Notes: generated by a model not told the origin, from the sequence alone. A stretch of 64,000 bases of DNA from an uncultured delta proteobacterium (GCA_963834795.1 CAWIDL010000021.1:29938-93937), one strand, 5' to 3'. Shown: positions 7,569 through 22,904, counted from the stretch's first letter. Numbers and translations: made by a program.

Positions 7569-7811
7569 AAGAAAAATCCTCCGGCGCCGACCCTGGCAAA
7601 AAAGATAAAATAAGACAAAAAAAGATAAAAAAAGATAAAAAAAGCGGGTCGCTGAGTTACTCGCCGATTTCGAAGATATAGCATCTCCTCGGAAACCTAG
7701 TTAACGGCAGTAGTATCCGGCAGGGTTTTTGCTGTGAGGCAGGCATTAGGCATTTGTTTGAACTTAGACATGCCCACTAGCTAATAAATTCATGAAATTT
7801 GCAAGCTATTT

Positions 7812-7914
7812 CCCTCTCCCCCCTTGGGGGGAGAGGGCAGGGTGAGGGGGGGGTATGAAACGGCCGATGAAGCCACCCCTCACCCTAACCCTCTCCCCTC
7901 GCAGGGGAGAGGGG
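7812..7914. repeat. Palindromic repeat element (CCCTCACCCTAACCCTCTCCC...GGGAGAGGG family)
   Basis: Two inverted hairpin units; related copies at ~25452-25571, 56560-56610, 57630-57680, 59631-59748, 59836-59875, 61087-61191. Confidence 0.8.
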
Positions 7915-8165
7915 ATTTAGTTGCATCGATATAATATGTTGATATCGTTGAAATTACAATGGTCTAGCGTTTAACTGCGAGATAGTGTAATCTTCCCCTC
8001 GCCATTTTGTTGCCAGACACTACTAAGTTAACGGAGGTTAGCCCACCGGCGGGGGCGCGCATCCTGGAAGAGCGGGCAGCTCTTGTTGCCCGCCCGGCTG
8101 GTTTGGTGGACATTTGCCGGGAGAAATGATTAAGATGCCGAAAATTTATGGGAAAGGGGGTAGTC

Positions 8166-8651
8166 ATGGCCAACAAGATGCTGATTGCGCTGGATAGTTC
8201 GGAAGGGGCCTGGGGCGCGGTGGAATACGTCGCCAAAACCTTTGGTAAGACTCCTGGGGTTGGGGTCACTCTGCTTCATATCCTGCCGGGTCTGCCTCCG
8301 GGGTTCTGGGATCATGGTCATATTGTTGTGAGCGATAAAGAAAAAAGATCCTTGCAGCGCCTGGTGGCCAACTGGGAAGCAGAGCAAGAGAAGCAGTGGC
8401 AAAGCCTTGTGAAAAAAGCCCATAGTCGCCTTAACAAGGCGGGGATTCCCAAAGACGCGGTGACCGACAAGTTCAAACCCAAATATTACGATGTGGCAGA
8501 AGATATCCTTAATGAAGCCGAAACGGGGGGCTTCGACACCATCGTCATGGGCCGCCGCGGCCAGGGAACGGCCAAGGCGCTACTCCTGGGGAGCGTTACC
8601 AACAAGGTAGTCCAGAAAGCCAAGGGCTGCGCGGTCACCATTGTGGAATAG
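8166..8651 (+). CDS. Universal stress protein
   Basis: KMLIALDSSE N-terminus; DTIVMGRRG..LLGSVTNKVV C-terminal USP motif. Confidence 0.92.
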   Translation: MANKMLIALDSSEGAWGAVEYVAKTFGKTPGVGVTLLHILPGLPPGFWDHGHIVVSDKEKRSLQRLVANWEAEQEKQWQSLVKKAHSRLNKAGIPKDAVTDKFKPKYYDVAEDILNEAETGGFDTIVMGRRGQGTAKALLLGSVTNKVVQKAKGCAVTIVE

Positions 8652-8845
8652 CGCCTAAACCAGGTGGTCATCTGCCTCAGGATCTGGTCCCCCTGCCGGT
8701 GCTCAAGCCTGGATACCAGGATATACCGCCGCCAAGCTTCACCCCCACACCAGGATCGAGTCTGAGTAACGATATTGATAGATTCACCACCGCGAACGGC
8801 AGTCCAGAGAATATGCTCTAAAGAGCTTTCTGTATTGGAAGCCAA

Positions 8846-9967
8846 TTATAAGCTGGTCTTGCTCCGCTTCTGATCCATGGTCACGCAGTAAATGCCCCTA
8901 CCATCGAATGCAGGGGCGAAACATGCATTGTCTGAAACACATTCCGCTTTGCGGCGGTCACCCTCCCGCCAGCGCTTGACGAGCCCTGGCTCGCAAATCA
9001 GTGGCCGGCTCATGGAAATGTAGTCGGCCGTTCCATCCCGGACTAACCCCTCGGCCACCCCGAAGGAGCGTATGCCGCCCACCAGAATTAGCGGAATTGT
9101 GACTTTCTGCTTATAGAGCCTCGCAGCTTTCCGGTAATAGACCTCTTGCTTTGGGGTCTTCAGCCTGCCTGGGCGCACTGGCAGGAACTTTTCGGGGGAG
9201 TTCATCGTCCCGCCAGAGAACTCAATTGCATCGATGGATGCCTTCTCGAGCATACCCGAGACCTCTACGGCCTCTGGGCACGTCATACCCTCATCCAAGA
9301 AATCCTCGGAGTTGATTTTGATGAGAACTGGATATTCTGGTCCTACCGCCTCGCGGACGCTCCGTACTACTTTGAGAAGAAGCCGCGCCCGGTTCTTGAG
9401 TTCGCCTCCATATTCGTCTGTCCTCTTATTGAACGCGGGCGCGAGGAACTGGCTGAGCAGAAAGCCATGGGCAGCATGGATCTGTACCGCGTCGAAGCCT
9501 GCCTGTTTCGCTCGGTATGCGGCCTGAGCGAAGGCGAATACGACGTTCGCAATATCCTCCCTACCCGCCGGACGGCAGGTGGGCCGGCCGTTTTTCTCGA
9601 CTGCGGACGGCCCGATAGACTCCAAGCCGCTCAACTCGGAATTCGCCCTACATCCTCCGTGAGCCAGCTGCAGAGCGATCTTTCCTCCGGCTGCATGCAC
9701 CGCCCTGACCATACCCCGAAGCCCGGGCAGGAAACGATCAGCGTAGGCAGCCAGCTGTCCAGGACCGGCTTGGCCCTCGGGACTGACGAAGGTGTGACCG
9801 CTGATGATCAATCCAACTTCTCCTCTAGCCAGCTCGACCATCATCTCAATGAGTCTGGGGGTAACGGCGCCATCCTTGTCCGCCAAACCCTCCCAAGTCG
9901 CAGATCGTACGAATCGGTTGGCCAGCCTCATACCGTTGATAGAAGTGCATTCAAACAATTCAGCCAT
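8846..9967 (-). CDS. NADH:flavin oxidoreductase (old yellow enzyme family)
   Basis: NRFVRSATWE, QLAHGG, GFDAVQIHAAHGFLLSQFL.P..NKRTDEYGG, GGIR, SRP. Confidence 0.93.
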   Translation of the reverse strand: MAELFECTSINGMRLANRFVRSATWEGLADKDGAVTPRLIEMMVELARGEVGLIISGHTFVSPEGQAGPGQLAAYADRFLPGLRGMVRAVHAAGGKIALQLAHGGCRANSELSGLESIGPSAVEKNGRPTCRPAGREDIANVVFAFAQAAYRAKQAGFDAVQIHAAHGFLLSQFLAPAFNKRTDEYGGELKNRARLLLKVVRSVREAVGPEYPVLIKINSEDFLDEGMTCPEAVEVSGMLEKASIDAIEFSGGTMNSPEKFLPVRPGRLKTPKQEVYYRKAARLYKQKVTIPLILVGGIRSFGVAEGLVRDGTADYISMSRPLICEPGLVKRWREGDRRKAECVSDNACFAPAFDGRGIYCVTMDQKRSKTSL

Positions 9968-10137
9968 GGTGATCGTCCTTTTGGTGTTCTTGCCTTCTTG
10001 TTATGCCAATGGGCAGAGCCATACCCCTTTTTGATAGGTATACTTCCTTGTAGCAAACGGTTGGCGAAGGTTTCATCAATTTTCGCCGCATAATCCGGGA
10101 TAAGAGGTTCCAAGCAATCCTCTTATCCCTGGTGTTG

Positions 10138-10407
10138 TCATTTCTTCTGCGGTTCCCATTGACCGGAGGCAGAATTATATACCCTAACTTGGCCATTCAT
10201 GTCGCACATCCACTGATTGCCGACTTTTCGTATATTTTTGGCTTCGGCTGGTGCAAGTGGAGACAACTCGTCTGAAGTTCCCACGGCACTCTTCATATGG
10301 CTCGTTTCTGCGGGTTGTGAGGTTGACGATGATGCACATCCGCCCGCTAAGATCATCAACATGGCAGCCACTACCGCCATTCCGGAAAGATGAATCTTCA
10401 TCTGCAT
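10138..10407 (-). CDS. Small hypothetical lipoprotein
   Basis: GGAGG RBS before ATG at 10407; lipobox LAGGC followed by a Ser-rich linker. Confidence 0.7.
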   Translation of the reverse strand: MQMKIHLSGMAVVAAMLMILAGGCASSSTSQPAETSHMKSAVGTSDELSPLAPAEAKNIRKVGNQWMCDMNGQVRVYNSASGQWEPQKK

Positions 10408-10579
10408 CTCTTTGACCTCCTGACATTGATTATTATTCACAAAATCCTTGACAAGATGAACCTTATGGCAAATAAGTTACATACTTTTATCCACTATGTC
10501 AAAGAGAAAGGAGAATTTCCATGGCCACCGAAATCATCAAAATCACCGCCCAGATTGTAATTTCTCATGCCTCTATTGA

Positions 10580-10885
10580 CCTGCCCCCGCTTTGGCTGCT
10601 TTTGGGGCACCTTCAGCCCTTCCTGTCGCCGGATTCGTTCCATTCGCTTGTGGTTCACTACCCAGCCGTCACCTCGTAGCATCGCCAAGATGCGGCGATA
10701 GCCGTATCGTCCATACCTGGTGGCATAGCCAATGATGGCAGCGGTCAGCCCCACCTCGTCATCAGGCTCGGTGGCTCGGTAACGCTGGGTCGCCCGCGGT
10801 TGCCCAAGCACCCCGCAGACCCGGCGTTCCGACACCGGAAGAGCCTTCCGGATATCCTCGATGCATTGCCGGCGACGGCTCGGGC
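10580..10885 (-). pseudogene. IS3-family OrfB, truncated after KQPKRG
   Basis: SERRVC..LGQPRATQRY, RYGYRRI, VNHKR..RI.RQEGLKVPQKQPKRG then runs straight into the terminal IR. Confidence 0.85.
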
Positions 10886-11164
10886 TTAGAAGTTTCCCCT
10901 TACCGCCTCCTGGAGAATCAGTTTATCCAGGGTGAGATCCGCCACCGCCCGTCTCAGCCGGGTATTCTCTTGCTCCAGGACCTTGAGCCGTTTGGCCTGT
11001 TCAACCTTTAAACCACCGTACTCCCGGCGCCAGCGATAGAAGGTCTGTTCGCCAATCCCCAGGGTACGGCATACCTGGGCCGCCGTCCCCCCCTGTGCCA
11101 GGGCTACCTCTGCTTCCCGCAGCTTCCCGATGATCTGCTCCGGTATGTAACGCCTCCTGCTCAT
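10886..11164 (-). CDS. IS3-family transposase OrfA
   Basis: EQIIGKLRE...GIGEQTFYRWRREYGG...LEQENTRLRRAVADLTLD; ends at a GGGAAAC frameshift-type window. Confidence 0.92.
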   Translation of the reverse strand: MSRRRYIPEQIIGKLREAEVALAQGGTAAQVCRTLGIGEQTFYRWRREYGGLKVEQAKRLKVLEQENTRLRRAVADLTLDKLILQEAVRGNF

Positions 11165-11820
11165 CTCCCTGCCTCCCTTCGATCCACTACTCTAACATAA
11201 CTCGTGGATCAGTTTTTGGGGGGCAGGTCAGTAAAAAGTTGCTAAAATCTGGTCAATTTTTCATGGTAAAACAGCTTAATATGTTGTAATATCAGGGTGG
11301 CCCTGGTGGTGAATCTCAAACGCTGGGTCACCCTCTTAAAGCTGCGAAGTCCGGCCTGCTCATGGGCTAACGCCGCTTAACCTGGAACCGAGGCTCCAAA
11401 CAAGAGAAAAGAACCATCAAACCTTTAGAATTTCGAGGTGAATTCTTTATCAGTACTCAGAATCGTTAACTTGAACTTCATAGCGGCGCCTCTCCAACAA
11501 AAGAAACGCCGGAAATTAACCCTTTTGCAACGGTCTCAAGTTTATATCACTCTCGTGTAAAAGTCTCATTAGCTTCGGGTAATGTAAGCCTATTCCCCTC
11601 ATGTGCTATTGACATATTTCCATAATTTCCTTGACAGCTTTACCAAGTTGTGCTTTAAATATATCCCACGTGGAAGGGAACAGACGGACCGCAAGGATTT
11701 GCTGCGGGGTAAAGGCAAGGCAGGGCGTCAGGATAAAGCAGAGCCACTGCCACCAGCAACCGTTCAAGCACGCTAAGTGCAGCAGCTATATGCCCAGCAT
11801 CTTTTCAAAAGGAGGATAAA

Positions 11821-12270
11821 ATGAAAGGTAAGCTCATTTTCAAGCTCGGGGCACTCTCCACCATCTTGAGCTTTCTGCTGGTGATCCCCGCCTTGGGTCA
11901 GGTGAATGAGGATTTGGGGAAAAAACTCTGTGCATATAAAGCCAAGACGCTCAAAGAATTGAAGATTGGCCCGGATAAAGAAAAGGCGCTTTTAGGAGAG
12001 GAAGAAAAGTGTAATACAGAGCGCCAAGCAATCATCGCCGGCTTGAAGAAATCTAAGGAGGATTTGCAGGCCGCGTTAGCCGCGCCCAGCCCTGACGAGG
12101 CGAAGGTCAAGGGTCTGGTAGACGGCTTCATTGCCGCGCAGCTTAAATTGTTTAATTCTTTTCGGAATGAGCTGAACGAGGAAATGGCCCAAATGAGCCC
12201 GATACAACAAGGCAAGTATCTGATGGCCATGGAACGCTGGCGCCAAGATATGTGTCTGCCGGTACACTGA
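11821..12270 (+). CDS. Periplasmic Spy/CpxP/heavy-metal-sensor-like helical protein
   Basis: Signal peptide; helical hairpin with PDEAKV and a MSPIQQ (LTxxQ-like) motif; AGGAGG RBS. Confidence 0.75.
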   Translation: MKGKLIFKLGALSTILSFLLVIPALGQVNEDLGKKLCAYKAKTLKELKIGPDKEKALLGEEEKCNTERQAIIAGLKKSKEDLQAALAAPSPDEAKVKGLVDGFIAAQLKLFNSFRNELNEEMAQMSPIQQGKYLMAMERWRQDMCLPVH

Positions 12271-12280
12271 GGAGGACACC

Positions 12281-12463
12281 ATGGCTGGAAAAAGTCAAGA
12301 TACAAAAGTTAAGAACAAGGTCCTCTGTGAACTCCTGGAGGAGATCCGCCAGGAAAAGAAGAGGCGGGTAGCATTCCCGTTCTGGGGCAACTGGGGCAAC
12401 TGGGCCCGGCGCCACTGGCACGACTGGCAAAACTGGCAAAACTGGCTCAACTGGTGGACGTGA
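12281..12463 (+). CDS. Putative RiPP precursor peptide with Trp-X-X repeat core
   Basis: GAGGAGG RBS; helical leader KNKVLCELLEEIRQEKKRR; core with 9 Trp in the last 26 residues; lies directly upstream of two rSAM/SPASM genes. Confidence 0.85.
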   Translation: MAGKSQDTKVKNKVLCELLEEIRQEKKRRVAFPFWGNWGNWARRHWHDWQNWQNWLNWWT

Positions 12464-12548
12464 TATGAGAACCTATTTCTCAACTTGTCTTAGGCGGTAA
12501 ATACGTGTTCTCACCCACTTAAAGGTTGGGATACGGAGATTTGAAGCG

Positions 12549-12629
12549 CCCCTTTCCTAAGGGGGGATTTAGGGGGATTGTCAAGCTATTAGATAATCCC
12601 CCCATACCCCCCCCCTTTAGAAAAGGGGG
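12549..12629. repeat. Palindromic repeat (CCCCCCTTT..AAGGGGGG family)
   Basis: Paired hairpins; similar copy at 61418-61500. Confidence 0.75.
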
Positions 12630-12794
12630 TATTTATTTGCAAACTTAAACCCCCTTGGATGATTCAAGTTGACGTCAGAATGCGGTTTTGAAATGACTTC
12701 TCGTCGTTCAGTATTTTGATCACGCACATCACCTGGCGTTAGACTTTTCAAAACTGGTGAATACGTCCAGTGCCTCACATTCCTTTTCATTCCC

Positions 12795-14060
12795 ATGGTG
12801 AAAAATCTCTCTCCCATACAATCATACGGTCCCGATTGGGAAAAACATCTACCGGTGGTGCCCCAAATCCAGGTAACTCGGAACTGCAACCTGGCGTGCG
12901 GGTATTGCTTCCAGGAGCATTCCGGGGGTATTATCGGCCTCTCGACGGTTGAGACGATTCTACGCCGCGTCATCGCCCATAATCTGACCATTGATCCTCT
13001 CACCAAGGTAATTCAGATCTACTGGCACGGCGGTGAGCCCCTCCTGGCGGGCCTCGATTTTTTTCGCGCCATCATCGGCTTCGAGGCTCAGTATCCCGAG
13101 CTTTCTTTTGAAAACCGGATTCAGACCAACGGGACCCTCATGAGCGATGATATGGCTCGATTGCTCGCCGAATATCAATTTCAGGTGGGCTTCAGCCTCG
13201 ATGGGCCCAAGGAGATTCACGATCGGTACCGGTGTTTTCACGGGTCGCGGTCCGGATCTTTTGATGCCGCCCTGCGCGGCATTGAATGTTACCGTGGTCG
13301 CGCCATGGTAGACCGCGTGGCAGTGATTGCCGTGGTTACCCGGGCGAGCATCGACCACGCTTTCGACCTGTTTGAATTCTTCAAGGCCTTGAGAGCAGAG
13401 GTCCAGCTGGATATCTATGATGTGCGCTGGCTGGACCTGATTTCGGAGGCCGGCGAGGTTGCAGGGTTGTCAGACCTTGCCCCTCTGCCGGAAGAAGTGG
13501 GACGGTTTCTGATCGAATTGTTTGATCTTTGGTTCTGGGACCAGGAGAGGCAGGTGGATTTCAAAGAGTTGCGGCAAGAACTCAAGATGGTCCTGCAGCC
13601 GGAAATCGATCGGGGCGACCCATTCCACAAGAAACGGTGCGACTTCCGGCGCCTTATTTTCGCCCCCAATGGCAGGGTGTTCAGCTGTGACCAGTGGGTG
13701 AATGATGAGAAGACGGCCCTGGGAGATATCCACCAGGATTCCCTGGCGGCCATTTTGACGAACAAGGGCGTCCTGTGGGAAAAGATTAAGCAGAGGATTC
13801 GGCGGTCCGGGAAATATATGGCCTGTGGAGGCTGTGAATGGGGCCGGCAGTGTGGCGGCGGGTGTTTCACCTGCATGAAATACAACGCGATGCTGCTCCG
13901 CGCCCGGTCAGAGGGACTGCCTGACAACCGCTGGGCCGACGCCGTCCTCCCTCCCGCTTGGGATGAGGTCCGCGGGGAGACGTACTTCTGTGAGGGGCTG
14001 AGAGCTTTCCGTCACCACCTGCGGGAAGTCGTCCGGCGGGAGCTCGCCAATGCCGGTTGA
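12795..14060 (+). CDS. Radical SAM/SPASM protein 1 (anSME-like; putative peptide maturase)
   Basis: CNLACGYC, WHGGEPLL, QTNGTL, SLDGP..HD; C-terminal C..C and CxxC-x5-C-x3-C..C. Confidence 0.92.
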   Translation: MVKNLSPIQSYGPDWEKHLPVVPQIQVTRNCNLACGYCFQEHSGGIIGLSTVETILRRVIAHNLTIDPLTKVIQIYWHGGEPLLAGLDFFRAIIGFEAQYPELSFENRIQTNGTLMSDDMARLLAEYQFQVGFSLDGPKEIHDRYRCFHGSRSGSFDAALRGIECYRGRAMVDRVAVIAVVTRASIDHAFDLFEFFKALRAEVQLDIYDVRWLDLISEAGEVAGLSDLAPLPEEVGRFLIELFDLWFWDQERQVDFKELRQELKMVLQPEIDRGDPFHKKRCDFRRLIFAPNGRVFSCDQWVNDEKTALGDIHQDSLAAILTNKGVLWEKIKQRIRRSGKYMACGGCEWGRQCGGGCFTCMKYNAMLLRARSEGLPDNRWADAVLPPAWDEVRGETYFCEGLRAFRHHLREVVRRELANAG

Positions 14061-15159
14061 TGCCAACGACGCCTTCACCCTTATCCTGGAGCCGGTGAAG
14101 CGCTGCAATCTAAGGTGCCGATATTGCTATTCGGACGGTGCCGGGGCCGGCGTCATGAGCCGGCATACGCTGCAGACGGCCTTGGAAAAAACGGCCCGCT
14201 ATGCCGAGCGACATGGGTTCAGGGAAATCCATATCCTCTGGCATGGGGGAGAACCCCTCCTGGCGGGCCTCGGGTTCTTCAGGGACGCGATGAAAATTCT
14301 TGACGGGCTTTCCTCGGACCTGAGATTCCATCATTATCTCCAGACCAACAGCCTGCTCCTCGATTATTACTTTTGTGCCTTTTTCCATGACCACGAGTTC
14401 CAGATTGGTATTAGCCTCGACGGCCCCCAAGTCTTGCACGACTCGATGCGAATCGGTGCAGATGGGCAGGGAAGCCACGCGGCGGTTTTGGAGAAAGTTC
14501 GCCTTTTGGAAGAACAGGGCGTGTCAGCGGGGTTCAACGCGGTCGTTATCCGGCGGAGCCTGGGTCAGGAGAAGGCAATCTACCGGTACTTTCAGGGCCT
14601 AGGGTACGGTTTCCGCGTTAACCCGATGGTTCCGGGGCGCAACCCAGAGACCTCTGCACCATACTTGCTTCAGCCAGGGGAATATGGCTCATTTCTTTGC
14701 CGCTTATTCGACGAATGGGCCAGTACGGATGGCCAGCGGGTCACAGTGTCGCCTCTGGACCTTTACCTGGAGGCAATTCTTGGTGGTGTGCCTTACGAAT
14801 GTCAGCAGCAAGGCACCTGTGCCGGGTCGCACCTCGGAGTGAAACCCTCTGGGGATGCCGTGCTGTGCAGCCGGTTTGAGACCCACCCCTTAGGGAATAT
14901 CCACGACAGTGAAATCCAGGAATTGGTAGCTTTACCTTTTTGCGAAGATATTCGCCGGCGCGCAGAGACGCTTTCATCCTGCCACACCTGTATGTACTGG
15001 TCAATCTGCCACGGCGGGTGCCCCCTCAACGCCTTGGTGTTTTGTCATGACCATATGGCAAAGGACCCTTTCTGCAAAGATTATCAGCTCATATTTGCAA
15101 GAATCCATCGAGCTCTGGCAGCTCTGCAAAGAAAGTCCCAAGCCTACCCAGAGCCATGA
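14050..15159 (+). CDS. Radical SAM/SPASM protein 2 (anSME-like; putative peptide maturase)
   Basis: CNLRCRYC, WHGGEPLL, SLDGP..HD; C-x5-C..C and CxxC-x5-C-x3-C..C; overlaps the upstream gene by 11 nt. Confidence 0.92.
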   Translation: MPVDANDAFTLILEPVKRCNLRCRYCYSDGAGAGVMSRHTLQTALEKTARYAERHGFREIHILWHGGEPLLAGLGFFRDAMKILDGLSSDLRFHHYLQTNSLLLDYYFCAFFHDHEFQIGISLDGPQVLHDSMRIGADGQGSHAAVLEKVRLLEEQGVSAGFNAVVIRRSLGQEKAIYRYFQGLGYGFRVNPMVPGRNPETSAPYLLQPGEYGSFLCRLFDEWASTDGQRVTVSPLDLYLEAILGGVPYECQQQGTCAGSHLGVKPSGDAVLCSRFETHPLGNIHDSEIQELVALPFCEDIRRRAETLSSCHTCMYWSICHGGCPLNALVFCHDHMAKDPFCKDYQLIFARIHRALAALQRKSQAYPEP

Positions 15160-16835
15160 GACCCTGGATTACTGGCATCATCTCACGCTACCGCTTCCCT
15201 CTGACGCTATTAGTTTTCGTGCAGCTCGGCTGCGGGGTGCTCATCGCGCTGCAGCCGCGCTACTATCAACAGCTGGTAAGCCTTGCCATCAATGGCCAAT
15301 ACGCCAATCTTTGGACCTCGGGGCTGCCCTTGCTCCAGCAACTGACCCTTATCTTCCTTGCCATCGCAGTGCTGCAAGGGATTAGCGGGTATATTGGCAC
15401 CGTCTTTTCTTTCAACCTGCTCAAGCAGCTTCAAACCGATTTTTTCGATAAGGCAAGCCACCTGCCCTTGACCTATTTCCAGAAGCAATCCGCCGGCGAA
15501 TTTTTCACCAAGTTCTCCAGCGATATTGCGCAAGCCCAGCGGTTCTTCGCTGATTTTCTTCCAGGGGTCGGGCGCGAACTCATCACCGCGATGGCGGTGA
15601 CGGTCGTCCTCTTCTATTTCTGCCCAGCCTCGCTTACCATGGCGGCCCTTGGCATCGTGGGCATCACCGCGATCCTCGTGACCGTCCTCAACCGAATTAT
15701 GGGTGTTTATGCGAGGGCTCAGCGGGCCACGTGGAGCGAAATACAGCGGGTCTTCGACGAAACAATTCAGGGAATCGACACAGTCAAGGTACTGGCTGCC
15801 GAGGGGCAGCAAGCAGCACATTTCCAGAGGCACACCACCGGACTGAAGAAGCTTTCTGTGCGAGCCGGGGCGGTGCTCTCGGTGTTTTCCCCCGGTATTG
15901 AGCTTCTCACCCAACTGGGCGGCTTAGGGTTGGTGGCCATGGCCTATTACCTGATCGCCAGAGGTAAGTTGCGTCTCGATCCTTTTTTGCTTTTTTTCTT
16001 TTACGCCAGCCTATTGCAGATGTCGGTCACCCAACTCACCAGGTTGGTGGCCAACGTGCAGACCGAATTCACCGGGATTCAACATCTGGCCGGATTTCTA
16101 GCTGAAGCCCCTGAGGCAGAAGATAGCCACCCCACGGTAACTCTGCCAAGCCAATCCGTCGCCATCGAGTTATCCAGTCTGACATTCGGTTACCCGGGAG
16201 GGCGGCGGCTCTACAACCGGGCGCACCTGCTTATTCCAGGAAATTCCGTCACCGTCATTGGTGGCGAAAGTGGAAGCGGTAAATCCACTCTCATCAATTT
16301 GCTCCTACGCCTTTATGCACCCGAGGAAGGAGTCATCTCCATCGGCGGGATCGACATCCGGCGGATTTCACGCACTGAGCTTCGGAGGAAAGTTGGGGTT
16401 GTCACCCAAAATCACTTTATTTTCCAGGAGACGCTGAGAGACAACCTCCTCATCGCTCAGCCGGACGCGAGTGACCGACAGATTTTGCAGGCCCTTGAAC
16501 GCGCCCAGTTAAAGGACTTTTTGGCGCGTTTGCCTCAGGGCATTGAAACAGTAATGGACCCGCGTGGCATAGGTGCTAGCACCGGTGAGAGGCAGCGGAT
16601 TTGCATTGCCAGGCTGCTATTGAGAGAGTCGCCGATCATGATTCTAGATGAACCATGGTCAAACCTCGACGACAGGGCACGCAAACTCCTTGCCGAGGTC
16701 ATCAACGCTTGCAAAAGTACCGCAACCATTTTAATTCTAACCCATGAGCGCCATCCGGCACTCGCCGTTGATCGACTGTACCATTTAGACGGGGCCCAAG
16801 GGATCTTAATCCAAGAGGACCCTGCTGCAGCCTAA
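15156..16835 (+). CDS. ABC exporter, fused permease/ATPase, no C39 peptidase domain
   Basis: N-terminal TM domain, Walker A GESGSGKST, Walker B ILDEP, H-loop; ATGA overlap with rSAM 2. Confidence 0.93.
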   Translation: MRPWITGIISRYRFPLTLLVFVQLGCGVLIALQPRYYQQLVSLAINGQYANLWTSGLPLLQQLTLIFLAIAVLQGISGYIGTVFSFNLLKQLQTDFFDKASHLPLTYFQKQSAGEFFTKFSSDIAQAQRFFADFLPGVGRELITAMAVTVVLFYFCPASLTMAALGIVGITAILVTVLNRIMGVYARAQRATWSEIQRVFDETIQGIDTVKVLAAEGQQAAHFQRHTTGLKKLSVRAGAVLSVFSPGIELLTQLGGLGLVAMAYYLIARGKLRLDPFLLFFFYASLLQMSVTQLTRLVANVQTEFTGIQHLAGFLAEAPEAEDSHPTVTLPSQSVAIELSSLTFGYPGGRRLYNRAHLLIPGNSVTVIGGESGSGKSTLINLLLRLYAPEEGVISIGGIDIRRISRTELRRKVGVVTQNHFIFQETLRDNLLIAQPDASDRQILQALERAQLKDFLARLPQGIETVMDPRGIGASTGERQRICIARLLLRESPIMILDEPWSNLDDRARKLLAEVINACKSTATILILTHERHPALAVDRLYHLDGAQGILIQEDPAAA

Positions 16836-16841
16836 CGAAGA

Positions 16842-16955
16842 GAATATGAGGATTTTTTTGCATACAGTCAACTGGCATGGGCATATATTTTTCTCGGTCG
16901 TGATAACGATGCCCTAACAGCCTTAAAAGAGGCCGTACGTCTGAGACCCGATTAA
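16842..16955 (+). pseudogene. Single-TPR gene remnant
   Basis: Translates to EYEDFFAYSQLAWAYIFLGRDNDALTALKEAVRLRPD*, a TPR-consensus unit with no start codon. Confidence 0.55.
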
Positions 16956-17490
16956 TGATCACTACTATGACTGGAAACTTATCAAGGTGTCAAAAACTTG
17001 TCATATCCAAATCATATCCACAATTTTTAGCGCCCCACTCATAAGGGTCTATTGTGGCAAGCTAGTGCGCATCGACCTTTTTCATGGATTATTTACCTGC
17101 GGCCCCACCTTAGCGGGGAACCACGAATAGGAGACTGGCTTGGATTCTAAAAGAATACTGGAGCACTTTGCCAACTTGACTTTGCACATAGGAGATATGC
17201 CCAAAATTCATAAAAAAAAGTATCCTTTCAAAAAAATTTTTGTTATAGTTGCGTCCACGAGAGGAGTTGGCTTCAAGAACAGAAACATTCGTCGATTTTC
17301 CTCGGGCTACGAGGTCTAAAGAACCATTATTAAACTGCAGTGGCCAGTGCTGCAATATAATCTTGGTTTTTAGGGAATATTTAATTCAAATAGACTAAAA
17401 AGAACGCCAAAAGCTGGACCCAAGATAAATATATAATAAGAGGGTTTTACAAGAACTGGAACTATCTTTTTAACTGATGTAAGTTGATTC

Positions 17491-19053
17491 ATGACAATGA
17501 AGATACAAAGCCTATGTAAGCAGTATGCTGCTGTGAGTCTTAAGAAAGATATTAGCATACTAACCGAAAACGAGCGTAAGATGATTTCATTGCTTATCGA
17601 AGCGGCACAAGTAATGGAAGAAATTTTTTGGGTGCAAGCTTATGGAGAAAAGGAGACGTTGCTTGCGTCAATTGAAGATCCCCTGATAAGGCGTTACGTA
17701 CAGATGAACTTTGGGCCCTGGGATCGCCTACGTAACAACCAGCCGTTTATCAATGGTGCTGGATCGAAACCACTTGGAGCGAACTTCTATCCATCAGACA
17801 TGACAAAAACAGAATTCGAAGCCGCAGCAACAATAAGCCCTGAACTCAAGGGGCAATACTCGATGGTGCTCAGGAAGGACAATGAACAACTTGTTGCCAT
17901 TCCTTACCATGTATTTTTCCAAAGTCAAGTAAGGTTAGCTTCCAATAAGTTGAAAGAAGCTGCTAACCTAAGTGATGATGAAAACCTAAAACGTTTTCTA
18001 ACAATGCGGTCTGAAGCCCTTTTAACAGATAATTACCAACTTAGTGATCTAGCTTGGATGGACATGAAGGAAAACACGATTGATATTGTAATTGGACCAA
18101 TCGAGACTTACGAGGATCAGCTTTTCGGTTATAAGTCTTCCTATGAGGCTTTTATTATGGTCAAGGATTGGCAAGCGACTAAGAACCTTGATCGATATGT
18201 TGATCTCCTATCACACTTACAACAAAATCTTCCTATGCCCAATTCTTATAAACTTGAAGGAGCTGGTTCAAGTAGCGATTTGAATGTCTACGATCTTATC
18301 TATTGTAGCGGTGAGGCCAATTCCGGGGCCAAATTCATAGCACTTAACCTGCCTAACGATGAGGATGTTCAGGTTGCAAAGGGTTCACGGCGATTGTATT
18401 TCAAAAACGTAATGAATGCGAAATTTAATAAGATTTTATTGCCATTTGCTAATAAGATAATAGCAAAAGATCAGCGTATACATATTACAAATTATGCATT
18501 TTTCTACAATATTATCTTTCATGAAGTTTCACATGGTCTTGGTATTAAGCATACAATTACTAATAAATTAGCGGTTCATACATCTTTAAAAGATATAGAT
18601 TCCCCAATTGAAGAATGTAAAGCTGATATTTTGAGCCTGTACTTGCTGGAAAAACTAAGCGAATGGGGTGAGTTAATCGAAGTTAACCTACTCGACAACT
18701 ATGTTACGTTTTTAGCTAGTATATTACGTTCAATACGACTAGGAATGTGTAATGCTCACAGTCGTGCCAACCTGATTCATCTCAACTTTTTTAAAAACTT
18801 TGGTGCGGTTTTGCGAGAGCCAGAAACAGGGTTGTACCGCGTTGTTTTTGGGAAAATAAGAGAAGCTGTACATATACTATCCGAACGCATCTTGCGCTTT
18901 CAAGGTGAAGGGGACTACGAGGGTGTTTTATCATTTATGGATATTTATTGTAAAATTGATGATGAACTTAAGCATGATCTTGATCCCATCAATTTGGCAG
19001 AAATTCCTACAGACATTACCTTTAAGCAGGGTTTAGAGTTGATGGGTCTTTAG
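17491..19053 (+). CDS. Dipeptidyl-peptidase III-like (M49) zinc peptidase, HEXXH type
   Basis: GPWDRL, GANFYP.DM, GPIETYED.LFG.K, NLPND, HEVSHGLG and EECKAD; AT-rich. Confidence 0.88.
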   Translation: MTMKIQSLCKQYAAVSLKKDISILTENERKMISLLIEAAQVMEEIFWVQAYGEKETLLASIEDPLIRRYVQMNFGPWDRLRNNQPFINGAGSKPLGANFYPSDMTKTEFEAAATISPELKGQYSMVLRKDNEQLVAIPYHVFFQSQVRLASNKLKEAANLSDDENLKRFLTMRSEALLTDNYQLSDLAWMDMKENTIDIVIGPIETYEDQLFGYKSSYEAFIMVKDWQATKNLDRYVDLLSHLQQNLPMPNSYKLEGAGSSSDLNVYDLIYCSGEANSGAKFIALNLPNDEDVQVAKGSRRLYFKNVMNAKFNKILLPFANKIIAKDQRIHITNYAFFYNIIFHEVSHGLGIKHTITNKLAVHTSLKDIDSPIEECKADILSLYLLEKLSEWGELIEVNLLDNYVTFLASILRSIRLGMCNAHSRANLIHLNFFKNFGAVLREPETGLYRVVFGKIREAVHILSERILRFQGEGDYEGVLSFMDIYCKIDDELKHDLDPINLAEIPTDITFKQGLELMGL

Positions 19054-19219
19054 GTGTAGAGTATTATGGATATAAATTTATATATAAATGGAAGCTGATA
19101 GTTATCATTTTTGTATGAAATGAAGTGTACAAATGTATTGGATCCAACGTTATGGCTTCAGGATGATTTTGCTTTTATCAGTTACAATAACTAATGCTTA
19201 AGAGATACAGGAGGCAGCA

Positions 19220-19837
19220 ATGACGTATCACGACAACATTAAACTTATCTCGTTGGCCGTCAACATATTATCTTTGCTGGTTATTGGTATTACTGCATTT
19301 TATATTAAAAAGCAAGCCGAATTATTTCGTAAACAAATATCAGAAAACCACGAATGGAATCGCAGAAAAACAACTCAGGAAGTTTTAATGGATCTATCAT
19401 ATGGGGAGTTTCCTAATAAGGTCCAAAAATTAAAGAAAGAGTATGGCTTAGAGTTCTCAGATAAATGCAACCCCTATACTAAACTCGCCGAATCACTGGA
19501 AGGCGATAAACTGAAAGATTTTGAGTTAATTATCGAAAGTATATGCAATATCTTAGAATCTTTTTGTATAAATATGAAAAATAAAATTATTGATCCAGAG
19601 ATCTGTTATGATTATATGTCCCTTATAATGACCGAATGCTATAAATTTTGTACTCCATTTATAGAAAAGAGGAGAAAACTATACGATGATGAACTAGTTT
19701 ATTTCGAATTAGAGGTTCATGCTAAAGAATGGCTAAAACGAATTAATAAAGAAAAAGAGTTTATAGATGACAAGAAGAAAGAGTTGAAAAATCAGATAAT
19801 TGATGCAATCAGACCAAAAGGAAAGGAAAAACTTTAG
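19220..19837 (+). CDS. Membrane-anchored hypothetical protein (DUF4760-like)
   Basis: N-terminal TM helix, N.LE..C, Y.ELE..A..W; very AT-rich; GGAGG RBS. Confidence 0.7.
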   Translation: MTYHDNIKLISLAVNILSLLVIGITAFYIKKQAELFRKQISENHEWNRRKTTQEVLMDLSYGEFPNKVQKLKKEYGLEFSDKCNPYTKLAESLEGDKLKDFELIIESICNILESFCINMKNKIIDPEICYDYMSLIMTECYKFCTPFIEKRRKLYDDELVYFELEVHAKEWLKRINKEKEFIDDKKKELKNQIIDAIRPKGKEKL

Positions 19838-20230
19838 TAAGGTTGAATTTTTTATTTCATTAATAATGATTAGCCATTATGGTCAACTGTAAATCTAGTT
19901 TCGAGACATTAGCTTAACTTTGCTTGCCAGGATGGTTGGTGAACTTTGTCCCATGTTAATGTTAGGCATTCATTATTGAATGCTGGGCACATTTGCAAGA
20001 AGACACAATATTATAAATAAAATAGGTTTACAACTATTTTTATTTTGAGGCAGGGCTTCAAGACTGCCCTGCTGTTTGTTTAATAAAGAACAAGTTTGCA
20101 TACTCATTATCTGCTATAAATCACCTACTTACTGATTGCATAAATTGGTTTTGATAAGCAAATCATATATCTAAATATAGGTGCGCCTCCAGCCTAACTC
20201 CCCATTGATTATTTTTAGAGGATACGCCGC

Positions 20231-20920
20231 ATGAATCTGAGCATCGTCATCCCGGTTTACAACGAAAAAGGCACCCTGGAGGAAATCTTCCGGCTGGTGC
20301 AGCTGGCCCCCTACGCTAAAGAGATCATCGCGGTGGACGACGCCTCGGTGGACGGCTCCCGGGAGCTTCTCGCCCGCCTGGCGGCGGAGTACGAAAACGT
20401 CAAGGTTTTCCACCACCGGCAAAACCAGGGGAAGGGCGCGGCCCTGCGCACCGGCTTTGAACAGGTGAGCGGGGACGTGGTCATCATCCAGGACGCCGAC
20501 CTGGAATACCGCCCGGCGGATTATCCGGCCCTGTTGGAGCCCATCCAGCACGACCTGGCGGACGTGGTTTACGGTACCCGCATGGTGGGCGGCCAGCCCC
20601 ACCGCGTGCTGTTTTTCTGGCATTACCTGGGCAACCGCCTGGTCACCACCCTGTCCAACATGTTCACCAATCTGAATCTCTCCGACATGGAGGTGGGCTA
20701 CAAGGTCTTCAAGGCGGAGGTCCTCAAAGGCCTTCGCATTAAGAGCAACCGTTTCGGGGTGGAGCCGGAACTCACCGCCAAGATCGCCAAGGGGGGTTGG
20801 CGCATCTACGAAGTTCCCATCCAGTACCACGGCCGCGATTACGCCCATGGCAAGAAGATCACCTGGAGGGACGGCATCGCGGCGCTCTATCACATTATTC
20901 GCTTCCACTTCTGGGATTAA
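20231..20920 (+). CDS. Glycosyltransferase family 2 (polyprenol-phosphate glycosyltransferase-like)
   Basis: SIVIPVYNE, VDDAS.DG, NQGKGAAL, QDADLEY, GKKITWRDG. Confidence 0.93.
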   Translation: MNLSIVIPVYNEKGTLEEIFRLVQLAPYAKEIIAVDDASVDGSRELLARLAAEYENVKVFHHRQNQGKGAALRTGFEQVSGDVVIIQDADLEYRPADYPALLEPIQHDLADVVYGTRMVGGQPHRVLFFWHYLGNRLVTTLSNMFTNLNLSDMEVGYKVFKAEVLKGLRIKSNRFGVEPELTAKIAKGGWRIYEVPIQYHGRDYAHGKKITWRDGIAALYHIIRFHFWD

Positions 20921-21004
20921 CCGGCTGGGGTTAACCAGGAAAAGGAGGCTGGAAGGTTGGCGAAACTTCCAGATCTTTTGGTTATTGAGCCGTTTCCTCC
21001 AACC

Positions 21005-21502
21005 ATGTCAAGAAATTGGAAATTCTGCCTGACCAGGGCGCTCTATGTGCTTTGGGGCGCCCAACTCATCTGGCTGGCCTGGCATTTCGCCCCGGAGGCT
21101 CGGGACCTGGCCCGGAGGATCGGCTTAGGGGAGGTGGGCGCCGCCGTCCGCCAGGAAGACCCCTTGTACCTGTGGTCCGCATCCTTGTCCGCCGTTATCC
21201 CCCCCGACGCCGCTTACGTCTTTGTGGATAATTATGAGTCCGGCAAAGAGATCGAGGTCCGTTACTATCTGGCTCCCCGGCACCACATCCTGGTGTCCCC
21301 GGAATCGCCGGCGGCCTTTCTTTTTCACACCTTGCATGAGGAGCAGGCTGCTTATTTAATCGTGCGGGACCAACAAAAGCCCCCCGGACCGGGGGTCCAG
21401 GCGGCCGTCCGCTCTCAGGCGGTGCTGCCACTTAAGATCCAAGGCCCCGGCCGGGTCTATCGGGTGGACCACCTTCGCTTTCACTGGGGCTTCTATGATT
21501 GA
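21005..21502 (+). CDS. Hypothetical membrane-anchored protein
   Basis: ORF with N-terminal TM segment that overlaps the next gene. Confidence 0.7.
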   Translation: MSRNWKFCLTRALYVLWGAQLIWLAWHFAPEARDLARRIGLGEVGAAVRQEDPLYLWSASLSAVIPPDAAYVFVDNYESGKEIEVRYYLAPRHHILVSPESPAAFLFHTLHEEQAAYLIVRDQQKPPGPGVQAAVRSQAVLPLKIQGPGRVYRVDHLRFHWGFYD

Positions 21503-22901: not shown

Positions 22902-22904
22902 GTT

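What the first reader, a model, noticed from the sequence alone, without database searches (positions are those of the whole stretch)
11821..16835. Candidate new RiPP system: poly-(W-X-X) precursor with two radical SAM/SPASM maturases and an ABC exporter
Seen: the genes run periplasmic Spy-like protein, 60-aa peptide, rSAM1, rSAM2, ABC exporter on one strand, and the last three overlap by 11 and 4 nt. The peptide has a helical leader and the core FPF-WGN-WGN-WAR-RH-WHD-WQN-WQN-WLN-WWT. Established: rSAM/SPASM enzymes of the triceptide class (e.g. XyeB on WIN/FGN/WER motifs) crosslink an aromatic residue to the i+2 residue to form three-residue cyclophanes. Inference: the product may carry up to eight cyclophanes in two back-to-back blocks (3+5), an unusually dense architecture, in an apparently anaerobic Desulfobacterota-like host and with two maturases rather than one.
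Basis: partly seen in the sequence, partly recalled or inferred. Interest (0 to 1): 0.93.

Follow-up and report, generated by a model that had tools for sequence, protein, structure and literature searches.

The report
Poly-Trp-x-Asn peptide with two radical-SAM maturases
A small mobile gene cassette of sediment-dwelling sulfate-reducer relatives encodes a conserved 60-residue peptide whose tail is an unbroken run of Trp-x-Asn triplets, next to two different radical-SAM enzymes and an exporter, and it most likely makes an undescribed, very densely ring-locked peptide natural product.

Summary
Five + strand genes lie at 11821-16835: a periplasmic Spy/CpxP-like protein, a 60-aa peptide, two radical SAM/SPASM enzymes and an ABC exporter, with overlaps of 11 and 4 nt.

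The peptide is a real, conserved family. It has 40 other protein clusters and 12 further loci. The leader is invariant, and the core is usually a perfect (W-x-N)7-8 array ending in WWT.

In every locus long enough to show it, the order precursor, rSAM1, rSAM2, ABC is kept, even at 42-51% enzyme identity in the cultured Desulfospira joergensenii DSM 10085. The two enzymes are separate, non-sister clades. Both are below every curated family cut-off, and their nearest models are the dynobactin maturase and anSME. They co-occur exactly, in the same 3 of 401 genomes sampled from the phylum.

The cassette (11593-16835) is a mobile 5.2-kb unit inside a 9.6-kb strain-specific island.

Independent support for cyclophane chemistry: an alphaproteobacterial W-x-N array sits beside a bona fide GrrM/OscB cyclophane synthase, and OscB and XncB are reported to link Trp to Asn-Cβ.

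The chemistry, the division of labour between the two enzymes, leader removal and biological function remain untested.

Verdict: a genuine, apparently undescribed RiPP family, and a new variant of the triceptide kind.

The parts
11593..11820 (+). Conserved upstream non-coding leader of the cassette (presumed promoter region)
   Evidence: Homology between the window and the cassettes of G008 and G002 begins at 11593 and 11626 respectively, although the surrounding genes differ. The consensus scan found no sigma-70-like site here.
11821..12270 (+). Secreted 149-aa helical protein of the Spy/CpxP/ZraP type (PF13801-like); proposed periplasmic chaperone or immunity partner
   Evidence: ORF. The N-terminal signal-peptide-like segment is read from the sequence. 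PF13801 scores 21.4 bits against a cut-off of 29.2. 9 of 11 orthologues hit PF13801 at E<=0.01, best 1.2e-6. The gene is present upstream of the precursor in 10 of 12 other loci. No credible PDB relative by profile.
12281..12463 (+). 60-aa precursor peptide: conserved helical leader ending in AFPF, then the core WGN-WGN-WAR-RH-WHD-WQN-WQN-WLN-WWT
   Evidence: ORF and GGAGGA RBS. 41 family proteins were found and aligned as A1 and A2. 9-nt tandem repeats lie at 12382-12404 and 12414-12454. There is a single copy in the genome.
12464..12794 (+). 331-nt spacer holding a dispersed palindromic (REP-like) element, a terminator-like hairpin (12611-12629) and a promoter-like site (12688-12717)
   Evidence: The fold has z = -3.75 and none of 100 shuffles folds as well. 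The element matches 12 other places in the genome. The terminator-like and promoter-like sites come from the consensus scan. No Rfam match. The spacer is only 19 nt in L016, so it is not an essential part.
12795..14060 (+). rSAM1: radical SAM/SPASM enzyme of a narrow, cassette-specific clade
   Evidence: Pfam Radical_SAM plus SPASM. The best NCBIfam scores are anSME 178 and DynA 177, both below cut-off. C31, C35 and C38 plus seven or eight C-terminal Cys are conserved. Only three full-length 50%-identity clusters score above 340 bits, then scores drop to about 160. The group forms one clade with 100 support.
14050..15159 (+). rSAM2: radical SAM/SPASM enzyme, anSME/DynA-like with eight SPASM-region cysteines; translationally coupled to rSAM1 (11-nt overlap)
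   Evidence: Pfam. DynA scores 247 against 450, and anSME 233 against 349. C19, C23 and C26 plus C251, C257, C273, C311, C314, C320, C324 and C342 are invariant in 18 sequences. The best PDB relatives are anSME 4k37 and then the triceptide synthase ChlB 9gm3. The group forms one clade with 100 support and is not sister to rSAM1.
15156..16835 (+). ABC half-transporter (transmembrane domain fused to ATPase) without a peptidase domain; proposed exporter of the modified peptide across the inner membrane
   Evidence: ABC_membrane covers residues 17-291 and ABC_tran 355-501, with no C39 peptidase hit. The best NCBIfam hits are MsbA and CydD types, all below cut-off. The gene is conserved after rSAM2 in 8 of 8 loci that reach that far. 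Cassette homology with G008 and G002 stops exactly at its stop codon.

Best explanation
This is a self-contained, horizontally mobile RiPP cassette.

1. The 60-aa gene product is a precursor peptide. Its conserved amphipathic leader (...VKNKVLxELLEEIRQEKKRRVAFPF) is the handle recognised by the maturases.
2. Its core is an array of Trp-x-Asn triplets. Each triplet is converted into a three-residue cyclophane by a radical mechanism: the 5'-deoxyadenosyl radical abstracts the Cβ-H of the third residue (mostly Asn), the carbon radical adds to the indole of the Trp two residues upstream, and a SPASM auxiliary cluster takes up the electron. Each ring costs 2 Da.
3. The window's peptide could carry up to 8 such rings. 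Typical family members could carry 7-9 contiguous rings.
4. Two non-redundant, translationally coupled rSAM/SPASM enzymes share the work. They either act on different triplets (the invariant leader-proximal WGN-WGN versus the variable distal repeats) or install two different kinds of link.
5. The ABC half-transporter moves the product into the periplasm. There the co-transcribed Spy/CpxP-like protein binds it, as a chaperone or for self-protection.

Shown: the gene content, the conservation, the synteny, the co-occurrence, the mobility, and that both enzymes keep their cluster ligands.

Inferred: the type of cross-link, the number of rings, the split of labour, the roles of the ABC and Spy-like proteins, leader removal (no protease is in the cassette), and the biological activity. 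The likeliest activity is an antagonistic, envelope-directed peptide, by analogy with darobactin, dynobactin and xenorceptide.
For: Anatomy and coupling.

Precursor family:
- 41 clusters were found. W and N positions are invariant or at least 90% conserved while the middle residue varies among G, R, L, H, Q, F, Y and others.
- Leader dN/dS has a median of 0.35 over the 54 of 78 pairs with usable dS.

Synteny outside the window:
- rSAM1 follows the precursor in 11 of the 11 loci that extend past it.
- rSAM2 follows in 9 of 9, and the ABC gene in 8 of 8.
- This includes Desulfospira joergensenii DSM 10085, where the proteins are 51%, 42% and 46% identical.

Co-occurrence: rSAM1 and rSAM2 are found in the same 3 of 401 genomes sampled from the phylum.

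Catalytic competence: both enzymes keep CX3CX2C, GGEP and the SPASM cysteines.

Nearest relatives: the nearest curated models are peptide cross-linkers and anSME. For rSAM2 the DynA model scores 247 bits and the second-best PDB relative is the triceptide synthase ChlB.

Independent link between W-x-N arrays and cyclophane chemistry: in L017 a 153-aa protein ends in ...WPNWRNWPNWHNWRNWGNWFHNW and lies directly before an rSAM that passes the GrrM/OscB cyclophane-maturase model (408 bits against a cut-off of 310).

Literature (passages read):
- Triceptides are aromatic-to-Cβ links on Ω1-X2-X3 motifs (PMC11499958).
- XncB links Trp-C6 to the Cβ of Asn or Arg, OscB links Trp-C7 to the Cβ of Asn or Asp, and dynobactin has a Trp-C6 to Asn-Cβ bond (PMC11002830).
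- The WVN ring of xenorceptide A2 is Trp-C6 to Cβ (bioRxiv 10.1101/2024.12.16.628070).

Weak evidence: contigs of four wetland or sediment RNA libraries, 90-100% alike, lie on the cassette, including the precursor. Contigs cannot prove transcription, and DNA carry-over is possible.
Against: - Neither enzyme reaches the cut-off of any cyclophane-forming family. For rSAM1 and rSAM2 respectively: GrrM/OscB 116 and 125 against 310, XyeB 72 and 81 against 450, FxsB 88 and 117 against 370, YhhB 104 and 132 against 445, AmcB 102 and 125 against 425, DynA 177 and 247 against 450. The chemistry is therefore extrapolated across families.
- The anSME model scores almost as well as DynA.
- Known triceptide systems named in the papers read use one maturase. 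Nothing here explains why two are needed.
- No protease and no outer-membrane component are in the cassette.
- The Spy-like gene was not found in the two most distant loci, L015 and L016, so it is not essential to the chemistry.
- The window's own core is interrupted (WARRH), and three of its triads end in R, D or T rather than N.
- No mass-spectrometric, structural or docking evidence exists. The structure and complex predictors were unavailable.
Confidence: 0.6

Rival explanations
1. The same cassette and precursor, but different chemistry. One or both enzymes install something other than Trp-to-Cβ(i+2) C-C cyclophanes. Examples are larger rings (Trp to Trp, i to i+3), C-N or C-O links, epimerisation, or Cβ oxidation of Asn. 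The product would then not be a triceptide.
For: Both enzymes fall outside every curated cyclophane-synthase family and sit between anSME and DynA. Relatives in this part of the superfamily are reported to make C-C, C-O and C-N links (PMC11499958; PMC11002830). The presence of two distinct enzymes suggests two chemistries.
Against: The only positions conserved throughout the core are W and the residue two places after it, N. This is exactly the donor and acceptor pair of known Trp-x-Asn cyclophanes. A bona fide GrrM/OscB enzyme accompanies an analogous W-x-N array. Whether oxygen-dependent ether formation is unlikely in an apparently anaerobic host is an inference, not tested.
Confidence: 0.22
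2. Only one of the two rSAM/SPASM proteins is the cross-linker. The other is a non-catalytic or accessory partner, such as a leader-binding scaffold, or an enzyme that acts on the leader or on the Spy-like protein.
For: rSAM1 is a very narrow clade on a long branch. It has one Cys fewer in the first auxiliary-cluster region than rSAM2, and position C353 is not Cys in L016. Neither enzyme has an RRE-type domain hit, so leader recognition is unexplained.
Against: Both proteins keep the CX3CX2C triad and the GGEP SAM-binding motif invariant across all orthologues, which argues for two active enzymes.
Confidence: 0.1
3. The rSAM genes are anaerobic sulfatase-maturase-type enzymes acting on a protein substrate, and the small ORF is not their substrate.
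For: The anSME model is the best or second-best hit for both enzymes (178 and 233 bits), and anSME is the best PDB relative.
Against: Both score below the anSME cut-off of 349. In the tree a protein that does pass that cut-off (P0183) lies across a 97-supported split from both clades. The only genes conserved across the cassette loci are the five described, and no neighbour beyond them is shared. The core has no Cys or Ser. The peptide gene is strictly linked to the pair.
Confidence: 0.03
4. The 60-codon ORF is a chance frame in repetitive DNA and is not translated.
For: The core is built from 9-nt tandem repeats. Three database entries read the same DNA in another frame (QLAQLAQ...).
Against: The ORF has a strong RBS. 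The non-repetitive leader is conserved down to 53% identity in Desulfospira. The W and N codons are kept while the middle codon varies. Leader dN/dS is about 0.35. The gene keeps a fixed position before rSAM1 in all loci.
Confidence: 0.02

Closest known systems
Triceptides made by the GrrM/OscB family (TIGR04261)
   Same: The precursor carries repeated aromatic-x-x motifs. OscB is reported to link Trp-C7 to the Cβ of Asn or Asp at i+2 (PMC11002830). The enzyme is an rSAM/SPASM protein without an RRE hit. An OscB-family enzyme accompanies a W-x-N array in L017.
   Different: The window's enzymes score only 116 and 125 bits against the cut-off of 310 and form separate clades. There are two maturases instead of one. 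The leader family is different, with no NCBIfam hit for the precursor. The triads are contiguous with no spacer. A Spy-like gene and an ABC half-transporter are attached.
Xenorceptides (XyeA/XyeB = XncB/SmcB; TIGR04496)
   Same: W-x-N triads (WVN in xenorceptide A2) are cyclised from Trp-C6 to Cβ. There are three adjacent rings in a 12-mer, and export is dedicated (bioRxiv 10.1101/2024.12.16.628070).
   Different: XyeB scores are 72 and 81 bits against a cut-off of 450. Xye clusters have a Gly-Gly leader with a protease-transporter, an HlyD protein and an Asp protease, none of which is here. They make 3 rings against up to 8-9 here. They occur in Enterobacterales, not in Desulfobacterota-like anaerobes.
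Dynobactin maturase (NCBIfam NF041298 'DynA'; called DynE in PMC11002830)
   Same: It is the best-scoring curated model for rSAM2 (247 bits) and nearly the best for rSAM1. It is an rSAM/SPASM enzyme that makes a Trp-C6 to Asn-Cβ C-C bond and needs no RRE or cluster protease.
   Different: The scores are far below the cut-off of 450. Dynobactin is described as a 10-mer with two different rings made by one enzyme. The review gives that Trp-Asn link as i to i+3, whereas here Asn is always at i+2. The precursors are not related.
Darobactin (DarA/DarE)
   Same: It is a Trp-rich C-terminal core (WNWSKSF) cross-linked by an rSAM/SPASM enzyme, with ABC export genes and no cluster protease (PMC9055067; the ABC genes and the lack of a protease are recalled, not from a call).
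   Different: DarE scores 99 and 92 bits against a cut-off of 650. Darobactin has fused ether and C-C rings on a 7-mer. There is one enzyme, with a long N-terminal extension that is lacking here.
Anaerobic sulfatase-maturating enzyme (anSME, TIGR03942; PDB 4k37)
   Same: It is the closest solved structure and has the same short architecture with a full SPASM domain. rSAM2 has the eight-Cys pattern.
   Different: The scores are below cut-off. The core has no Cys or Ser target. The neighbours conserved with the pair are a peptide gene and an ABC exporter. The clades are phylogenetically separate from a protein that passes the anSME model.

Membership tests
Triceptide RiPPs (three-residue cyclophane peptides) | Precursor with aromatic-X-X (Ω1-X2-X3) motifs in the core (definition from PMC11499958) | tested here: met
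   The window core has 8 W-x-x triads, 5 of them W-x-N. 23 of 38 family members are perfect (W-x-N)n arrays of 7-9 triads.
Triceptide RiPPs (three-residue cyclophane peptides) | Maturase belongs to a recognised 3-residue cyclophane-forming rSAM/SPASM family (XyeB, GrrM/OscB, FxsB, YhhB, AmcB) | tested here: not met
   All NCBIfam scores are far below the curated cut-offs for both enzymes. The best is YhhB at 132 against 445 for rSAM2, and GrrM at 116 against 310 for rSAM1.
Triceptide RiPPs (three-residue cyclophane peptides) | Aromatic carbon to Cβ(i+2) cross-link in the product | not testable with these tools
   This needs MS/MS and NMR of the modified peptide.
Dynobactin maturase DynA (NF041298) | Score at or above the equivalog cut-off of 450 bits | tested here: not met
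   rSAM2 scores 247.1 bits and rSAM1 177.4 bits. The Desulfospira orthologues score 239 and 158.
Anaerobic sulfatase maturase (TIGR03942) | Score at or above 349.45 bits | tested here: not met
   rSAM2 scores 232.8 and rSAM1 178.2 bits.
Anaerobic sulfatase maturase (TIGR03942) | A Cys- or Ser-type sulfatase substrate | tested here: not met
   The core has no Cys or Ser. The only genes shared between cassette loci are the five of the cassette.
Darobactin maturase DarE (NF038005) | Score at or above 650 bits | tested here: not met
   The scores are 98.8 and 92.4 bits.
Darobactin maturase DarE (NF038005) | WNWxKxF-type core | tested here: not met
   The core contains no such motif (motif from PMC9055067).
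Radical SAM/SPASM superfamily | CX3CX2C cluster motif | tested here: met
   Radical_SAM is above cut-off for both enzymes. C31/C35/C38 in rSAM1 and C19/C23/C26 in rSAM2 are invariant.
Radical SAM/SPASM superfamily | C-terminal Cys-rich SPASM domain | tested here: met
   SPASM is above cut-off for both enzymes. The CX2CX5CX3C block and the flanking Cys are conserved in both, except that C353 of rSAM1 is not Cys in L016.
Spy/CpxP/ZraP periplasmic proteins (PF13801 / PF07813) | Pfam score at or above the gathering cut-off | tested here: inconclusive
   The window protein scores 21.4 bits against 29.2. 9 of 11 orthologues match PF13801 at E<=0.01 and 1 of 11 matches LTXXQ. The PDB profile search finds no Spy or CpxP chain. 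No structure prediction was possible.
Spy/CpxP/ZraP periplasmic proteins (PF13801 / PF07813) | Secreted helical protein | not tested
   The signal-peptide-like N-terminus is read by eye from the sequence.
Peptidase-containing bacteriocin ABC exporters (C39 type) | N-terminal C39 peptidase domain before the transmembrane domain | tested here: not met
   The transmembrane domain starts at residue 17. No peptidase family is among the 10 Pfam hits. The bacteriocin_ABC model aligns only from its position 179 onward.

The most novel reading that the evidence does not exclude
Two unrelated rSAM/SPASM enzymes act on one contiguous (Trp-x-Asn)8-10 array and install two different, interleaved kinds of link. 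This yields a rod in which essentially every core residue is locked in a ring, a cross-link density beyond that of any cyclophane peptide named in the papers read here. In addition, the co-transcribed Spy/CpxP-like protein is a dedicated periplasmic carrier or immunity factor for this product. No such accessory role was met in those papers, and it would point to an action inside the Gram-negative envelope, for example on outer-membrane biogenesis.
Probability: 0.25. Interest if true: 0.82.

Novelty: new variant of a known kind. Interest (0 to 1): 0.62.

Why it matters
Cyclophane peptides made by radical SAM enzymes include darobactin, dynobactin and the xenorceptides. These are antibiotics against Gram-negative bacteria that act on BamA.

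This cassette would extend the class in several ways:
- It offers a new precursor family whose core is nothing but back-to-back Trp-x-Asn triplets. This is a natural test bed for how many adjacent strained rings an enzyme can install.
- It adds two new maturase clades that always travel together. That raises a tractable question: why two enzymes, when the systems described in the papers read here use one?
- It has an unusual periplasmic partner protein.
- It comes from anaerobic Desulfobacterota-like bacteria of sediments and wetlands, whereas the cyclophane producers named in the papers read here are mostly Enterobacterales, Actinobacteria and a cyanobacterium.

The work can start without metagenomic guesswork. 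A divergent but complete cassette is present in a cultured strain, Desulfospira joergensenii DSM 10085, and the cassette is only 5.2 kb.

Tried and rejected
- Rfam scan of 11100-17500: no match at E<=1. The long hairpin in the spacer is therefore not a known RNA family. It turned out to be a dispersed repeat.
- A dedicated leader protease: none is in the cassette. The M49-like peptidase at 17491-19053 is not conserved next to any other cassette, so I rejected it as part of the system.
- Conserved flanking genes: none was found across loci. The TIR and STAND genes beside L015 and L016 are neighbours only.
- L018 and L025-L027 from the pattern scans are not family members. They are repeat DNA or other frames.
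- The profile search of the Spy-like family against PDB gave only chance-level helical matches, with E>=0.016.
- RNA evidence. Contigs from four RNA libraries cover the cassette. The lack of cover beyond 16838 and the thin cover before 11682 cannot be read as transcript ends, because these flanks are strain-specific and contigs cannot show ends.
- Literature. Six searches, including sequence strings of the core, found no description of this family. One search returned only irrelevant geology and dentistry hits. The two founding triceptide papers (PubMed ids 32807886 and 35729768) are not held, and supplements are closed. The published networks of about 3900-5400 putative cyclophane synthases may therefore already contain these enzymes as uncharacterised nodes, which I could not check. 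PMC10180388 gave no structural detail on dynobactin.
- Tree building. The first maximum-likelihood run with 155 rows did not finish. I repeated it with FastTree on 100 rows, taking every second representative plus three labelled ones. 57 representatives of suitable length were thus left out, and so were those outside 340-470 aa.
- In the dN/dS script the L019 leader is shifted by one residue, which inflates its values. 24 of 78 pairs were dropped for saturated or near-zero dS.

Full report
**1. The observation.** One search confirms five consecutive + strand ORFs at exactly the stated coordinates:
- 11821-12270 (149 aa)
- 12281-12463 (60 aa)
- 12795-14060 (421 aa)
- 14050-15159 (369 aa)
- 15156-16835 (559 aa)

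The last three overlap by 11 nt and 4 nt. The first two are 10 nt apart, and both are preceded by strong Shine-Dalgarno sequences.

Pfam gives these results:
- Both enzymes match Radical_SAM plus SPASM.
- The exporter matches ABC_membrane (residues 17-291) plus ABC_tran, with no peptidase domain.
- The first protein gets a sub-threshold Metal_resist (PF13801) match. At family level, 9 of its 11 orthologues match PF13801 at E<=0.01 and one also matches LTXXQ. 'Spy/CpxP-like' is therefore a fair but weak label.

**2. The peptide is a conserved gene family.**
- A search of the 5.8-billion-protein collection returned 41 clusters, one of which is the window's own.
- Three of the 41 are the same DNA called in another frame.
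- In the remaining 38, L15, E17, E21, I22, F32, P33, W35, N37 and N40 are invariant, and most other W and N positions are at least 90% conserved.
- 23 of the 38 cores are perfect (W-x-N)n arrays, nearly all ending in WWT, with 7-9 triads.
- 8 of 38, including the window's, carry a W[AG]RR(R)H interruption. 6 of 38 carry an HH(H) insertion. One is truncated.
- The middle residue of the triad is free: G 79, R 58, L 30, H 30, Q 14, F 11, Y 9 and others.
- The core is encoded by 9-nt tandem repeats, which explains the variation in repeat number.
- The non-repetitive leader evolves under constraint. Median dN/dS is 0.35 over the 54 of 78 pairs with usable dS, across 24 codons.
- The genome holds a single copy.

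What is general is a nearly invariant leader-proximal WGN-W.N followed by a variable number of W-x-N triads.

**3. Synteny and co-inheritance.** Pattern scans gave six genome loci (L011-L016) and six metagenome loci (L019-L024) with a leader-bearing precursor. By tblastn with the window's proteins:
- rSAM1 follows the precursor in 11 of 11 loci that extend beyond it. L019 ends just after the peptide.
- rSAM2 follows rSAM1 in 9 of 9 loci.
- The ABC gene follows in 8 of 8. In L015 the rSAM2 and ABC genes are split into pieces.
- The Spy-like gene precedes the precursor in 10 of 12 loci. It was not found with this query in L015 and L016.

L016 is Desulfospira joergensenii DSM 10085, a cultured strain. 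Its proteins are 51%, 42% and 46% identical to the window's, and its core reads WNNWMNWMNWRNWVNWNNWGNWVNW.

Among 41 related genomes, rSAM2 orthologues of at least 74% identity occur as follows:
- in 6 of 14 other genomes of the genus, one of which (G005) is broken by a TGA and frame changes
- in 1 of 10 genomes of other genera of the family
- in 0 of 16 more distant genomes

In an even sample of 401 genomes of the phylum, rSAM1 (E<=1e-70) and rSAM2 (E<=1e-60) are found in the same 3 genomes.

**4. The cassette is mobile.**
- A cassette-free genome of the same genus (G007) is collinear with window 2278-10570 and then continues at 20204-30000. The window therefore carries a 9.6-kb island.
- The island begins with a truncated IS, with HTH_Tnp_1 and HTH_21 fragments and no catalytic domain.
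- The island ends with a low-GC stretch (0.345) that holds an M49-like peptidase and a DUF4760 protein.
- Two other species of the genus share with the window only 11593 (or 11626) to 16835, ending exactly at the ABC stop codon.
- In those two species the window's left-hand neighbour gene lies about 246 kb and about 950 kb away from the cassette.
- Flanking genes differ in every locus. In L015 and L016 they include TIR and STAND NTPase genes.

**5. The two enzymes.** Both keep the CX3CX2C triad and the GGEP motif in all orthologues.
- rSAM2 has eight further invariant Cys (C251, C257, C273, C311, C314, C320, C324, C342), the anSME-like full SPASM pattern.
- rSAM1 lacks the first of these. It has C282, C298, C344, C347, C353 (not Cys in L016), C357, C360 and C399, plus a longer C-terminal tail.

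Against NCBIfam, neither enzyme reaches any cut-off:

| Model (cut-off) | rSAM2 | rSAM1 |
|---|---|---|
| DynA (450) | 247 | 177 |
| anSME (349) | 233 | 178 |
| YhhB (445) | 132 | 104 |
| GrrM/OscB (310) | 125 | 116 |
| AmcB (425) | 125 | 102 |
| FxsB (370) | 117 | 88 |
| XyeB (450) | 81 | 72 |
| DarE (650) | 92 | 99 |

Further points on the two enzymes:
- The best solved relatives are anSME (4k37) and then the triceptide synthase ChlB (9gm3).
- rSAM1 is a very narrow clade. In 1.84 billion representatives, only three full-length clusters score 348-458 bits, and the next ones score about 160.
- rSAM2 has many metagenomic relatives: 521 at E<=1e-20 among the 8000 candidates scored. Of the 120 listed, none carries more than a generic name.
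- The two enzymes are only 28-31% identical to each other.
- A FastTree of 100 rows puts rSAM1 (13 rows) and rSAM2 (18 rows) each in one clade with 100 support. The clades are not sisters, and both lie across a 97-supported split from a protein that passes the anSME model.
- The tree is quick, unrooted and biased in sampling, because its rows are hits of rSAM1. It argues against a recent tandem duplication but does not date the pairing.

**6. Why cyclophanes are the best guess.**
- The published definition of triceptides is an aromatic-to-Cβ link on Ω1-X2-X3 motifs made by rSAM/SPASM enzymes (PMC11499958, passages).
- XncB links Trp-C6 to the Cβ of Asn or Arg. OscB links Trp-C7 to the Cβ of Asn or Asp. 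The dynobactin enzyme makes a Trp-C6 to Asn-Cβ bond (PMC11002830, passages).
- The WVN ring of xenorceptide A2 is Trp-C6 to Cβ (bioRxiv 10.1101/2024.12.16.628070, passages).
- In this family the only conserved core positions are W and the N two places later, which are the donor and acceptor pair of those reactions.
- Independently, the scan found an alphaproteobacterial locus (L017). There a 153-aa protein ends in ...WGNFRWGWGWPNWRNWPNWHNWRNWGNWFHNW and is followed at once by an rSAM that passes the GrrM/OscB cyclophane-maturase model (408 bits, cut-off 310). W-x-N arrays are thus found with a recognised cyclophane synthase in another lineage.

This is an argument by analogy. The window's enzymes fail the membership tests, so 'works like a triceptide system' is my reading at about 0.6, while 'is a member of a known maturase family' is not supported.

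**7. Operon details.**
- The 331-nt spacer after the precursor folds strongly (z = -3.75). Its core is a palindromic element with matches at 12 other places in the genome and no Rfam match.
- The spacer contains a terminator-like hairpin at 12611-12629 and is followed by a promoter-like site at 12688-12717. Both are consensus matches only.
- This could raise the ratio of precursor to enzyme, as in many peptide operons. However, the spacer is 19 nt in Desulfospira, so it is not essential.
- Contigs from four wetland or sediment RNA libraries, 90-100% alike, lie on 26-29 of the 30 bins of 11300-17000, including the precursor. This is compatible with expression in nature but is not proof of it.

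**8. What remains open.** The following are unknown:
- the cross-link type and number of rings
- which enzyme does what
- how and where the leader is removed, since the cassette has no protease and the ABC has no peptidase domain
- how the product crosses the outer membrane, if it does
- what the Spy-like protein does
- the biological activity

I propose export to the periplasm and binding by the Spy-like protein, as chaperone or self-protection, with an antagonistic, envelope-directed function by analogy with the BamA-binding cyclophane peptides. All of this is inference.

The search of earlier findings, complex prediction, structure prediction and the protein atlas were unavailable.

**9. 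Novelty and score.**
- Six literature searches found no description of a poly-(W-x-N) precursor or of this enzyme pair.
- The founding triceptide papers and all supplements could not be read, so prior cataloguing as an uncharacterised network node cannot be excluded.
- I rate it a new variant of a known kind. The logic (rSAM/SPASM, aromatic-x-x motifs) is known, but the precursor family, the two obligately paired maturase clades, the contiguous array of up to 9 triads and the periplasmic partner are new.
- Interest is 0.62. It is a solid and readily testable discovery lead for natural-product enzymology, not a conceptual surprise.

Noticed in passing
window 12530-12660; also about window 61421-61506 (G000:C21:91358-91443): A G/C-rich palindromic element of about 130 nt (REP- or MITE-like) sits in the spacer between the precursor and rSAM1. 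It matches 12 other places in the genome at 73-86% identity. It has no Rfam family.
   Followed up: partly
window 10570-20204: This 9.6-kb strain-specific island is absent from a collinear genome of the same genus, G007. It runs from a truncated IS (10494-11164, HTH_Tnp_1 and HTH_21 only), through the cassette, to a low-GC (0.345) segment with an M49-like peptidase (17491-19053) and a DUF4760 protein (19220-19837).
   Followed up: partly
L017:7617-9302 (Alphaproteobacteria MAG): This is a different system with the same kind of core. A 153-aa protein with a signal-peptide-like segment and a C-terminal W-x-N array is followed by a single rSAM that passes the GrrM/OscB cyclophane-maturase model. 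The precursor has no NCBIfam family.
   Followed up: partly
L008 (G005:C31:116683-117792): In one species of the genus the rSAM2 orthologue is in four pieces with an internal TGA. This is either a decaying cassette or an assembly error in a 68%-complete genome.
   Followed up: no
L015:9652-12396: In this MAG the rSAM2 and ABC genes are split into several ORFs while the precursor and rSAM1 are intact. Frameshifts from long-read assembly are one possible cause.
   Followed up: no
L016:3776-7955 and L015:3908-5707: TIR-domain and STAND NTPase (nSTAND1, nSTAND2) genes lie directly upstream of the cassette in the two most distant loci. The cassette may tend to land in variable or defence islands.
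   Followed up: no
window 10138-10440 (- strand) and L012:12828-13172 (- strand): A 100-aa protein with no Pfam family lies near the cassette in the window and has a 52% identical homologue immediately after the ABC gene in L012. From the sequence it looks like a small secreted protein or lipoprotein. This may be a loosely linked sixth gene.
   Followed up: no
P0037, P0039, P0041 (database proteins): Three gene calls share the family leader but continue as QLAQLAQL..., the same 9-nt repeat DNA read in another frame. They are probably indel errors in the repeat, and a warning for automated precursor mining.
   Followed up: no
P0166 (567 aa): A representative protein carries the C-terminal 150 residues of rSAM1 (69% identity) at its positions 418-566, after an unrelated N-terminal part. 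It may be a fusion or a mis-assembly.
   Followed up: no
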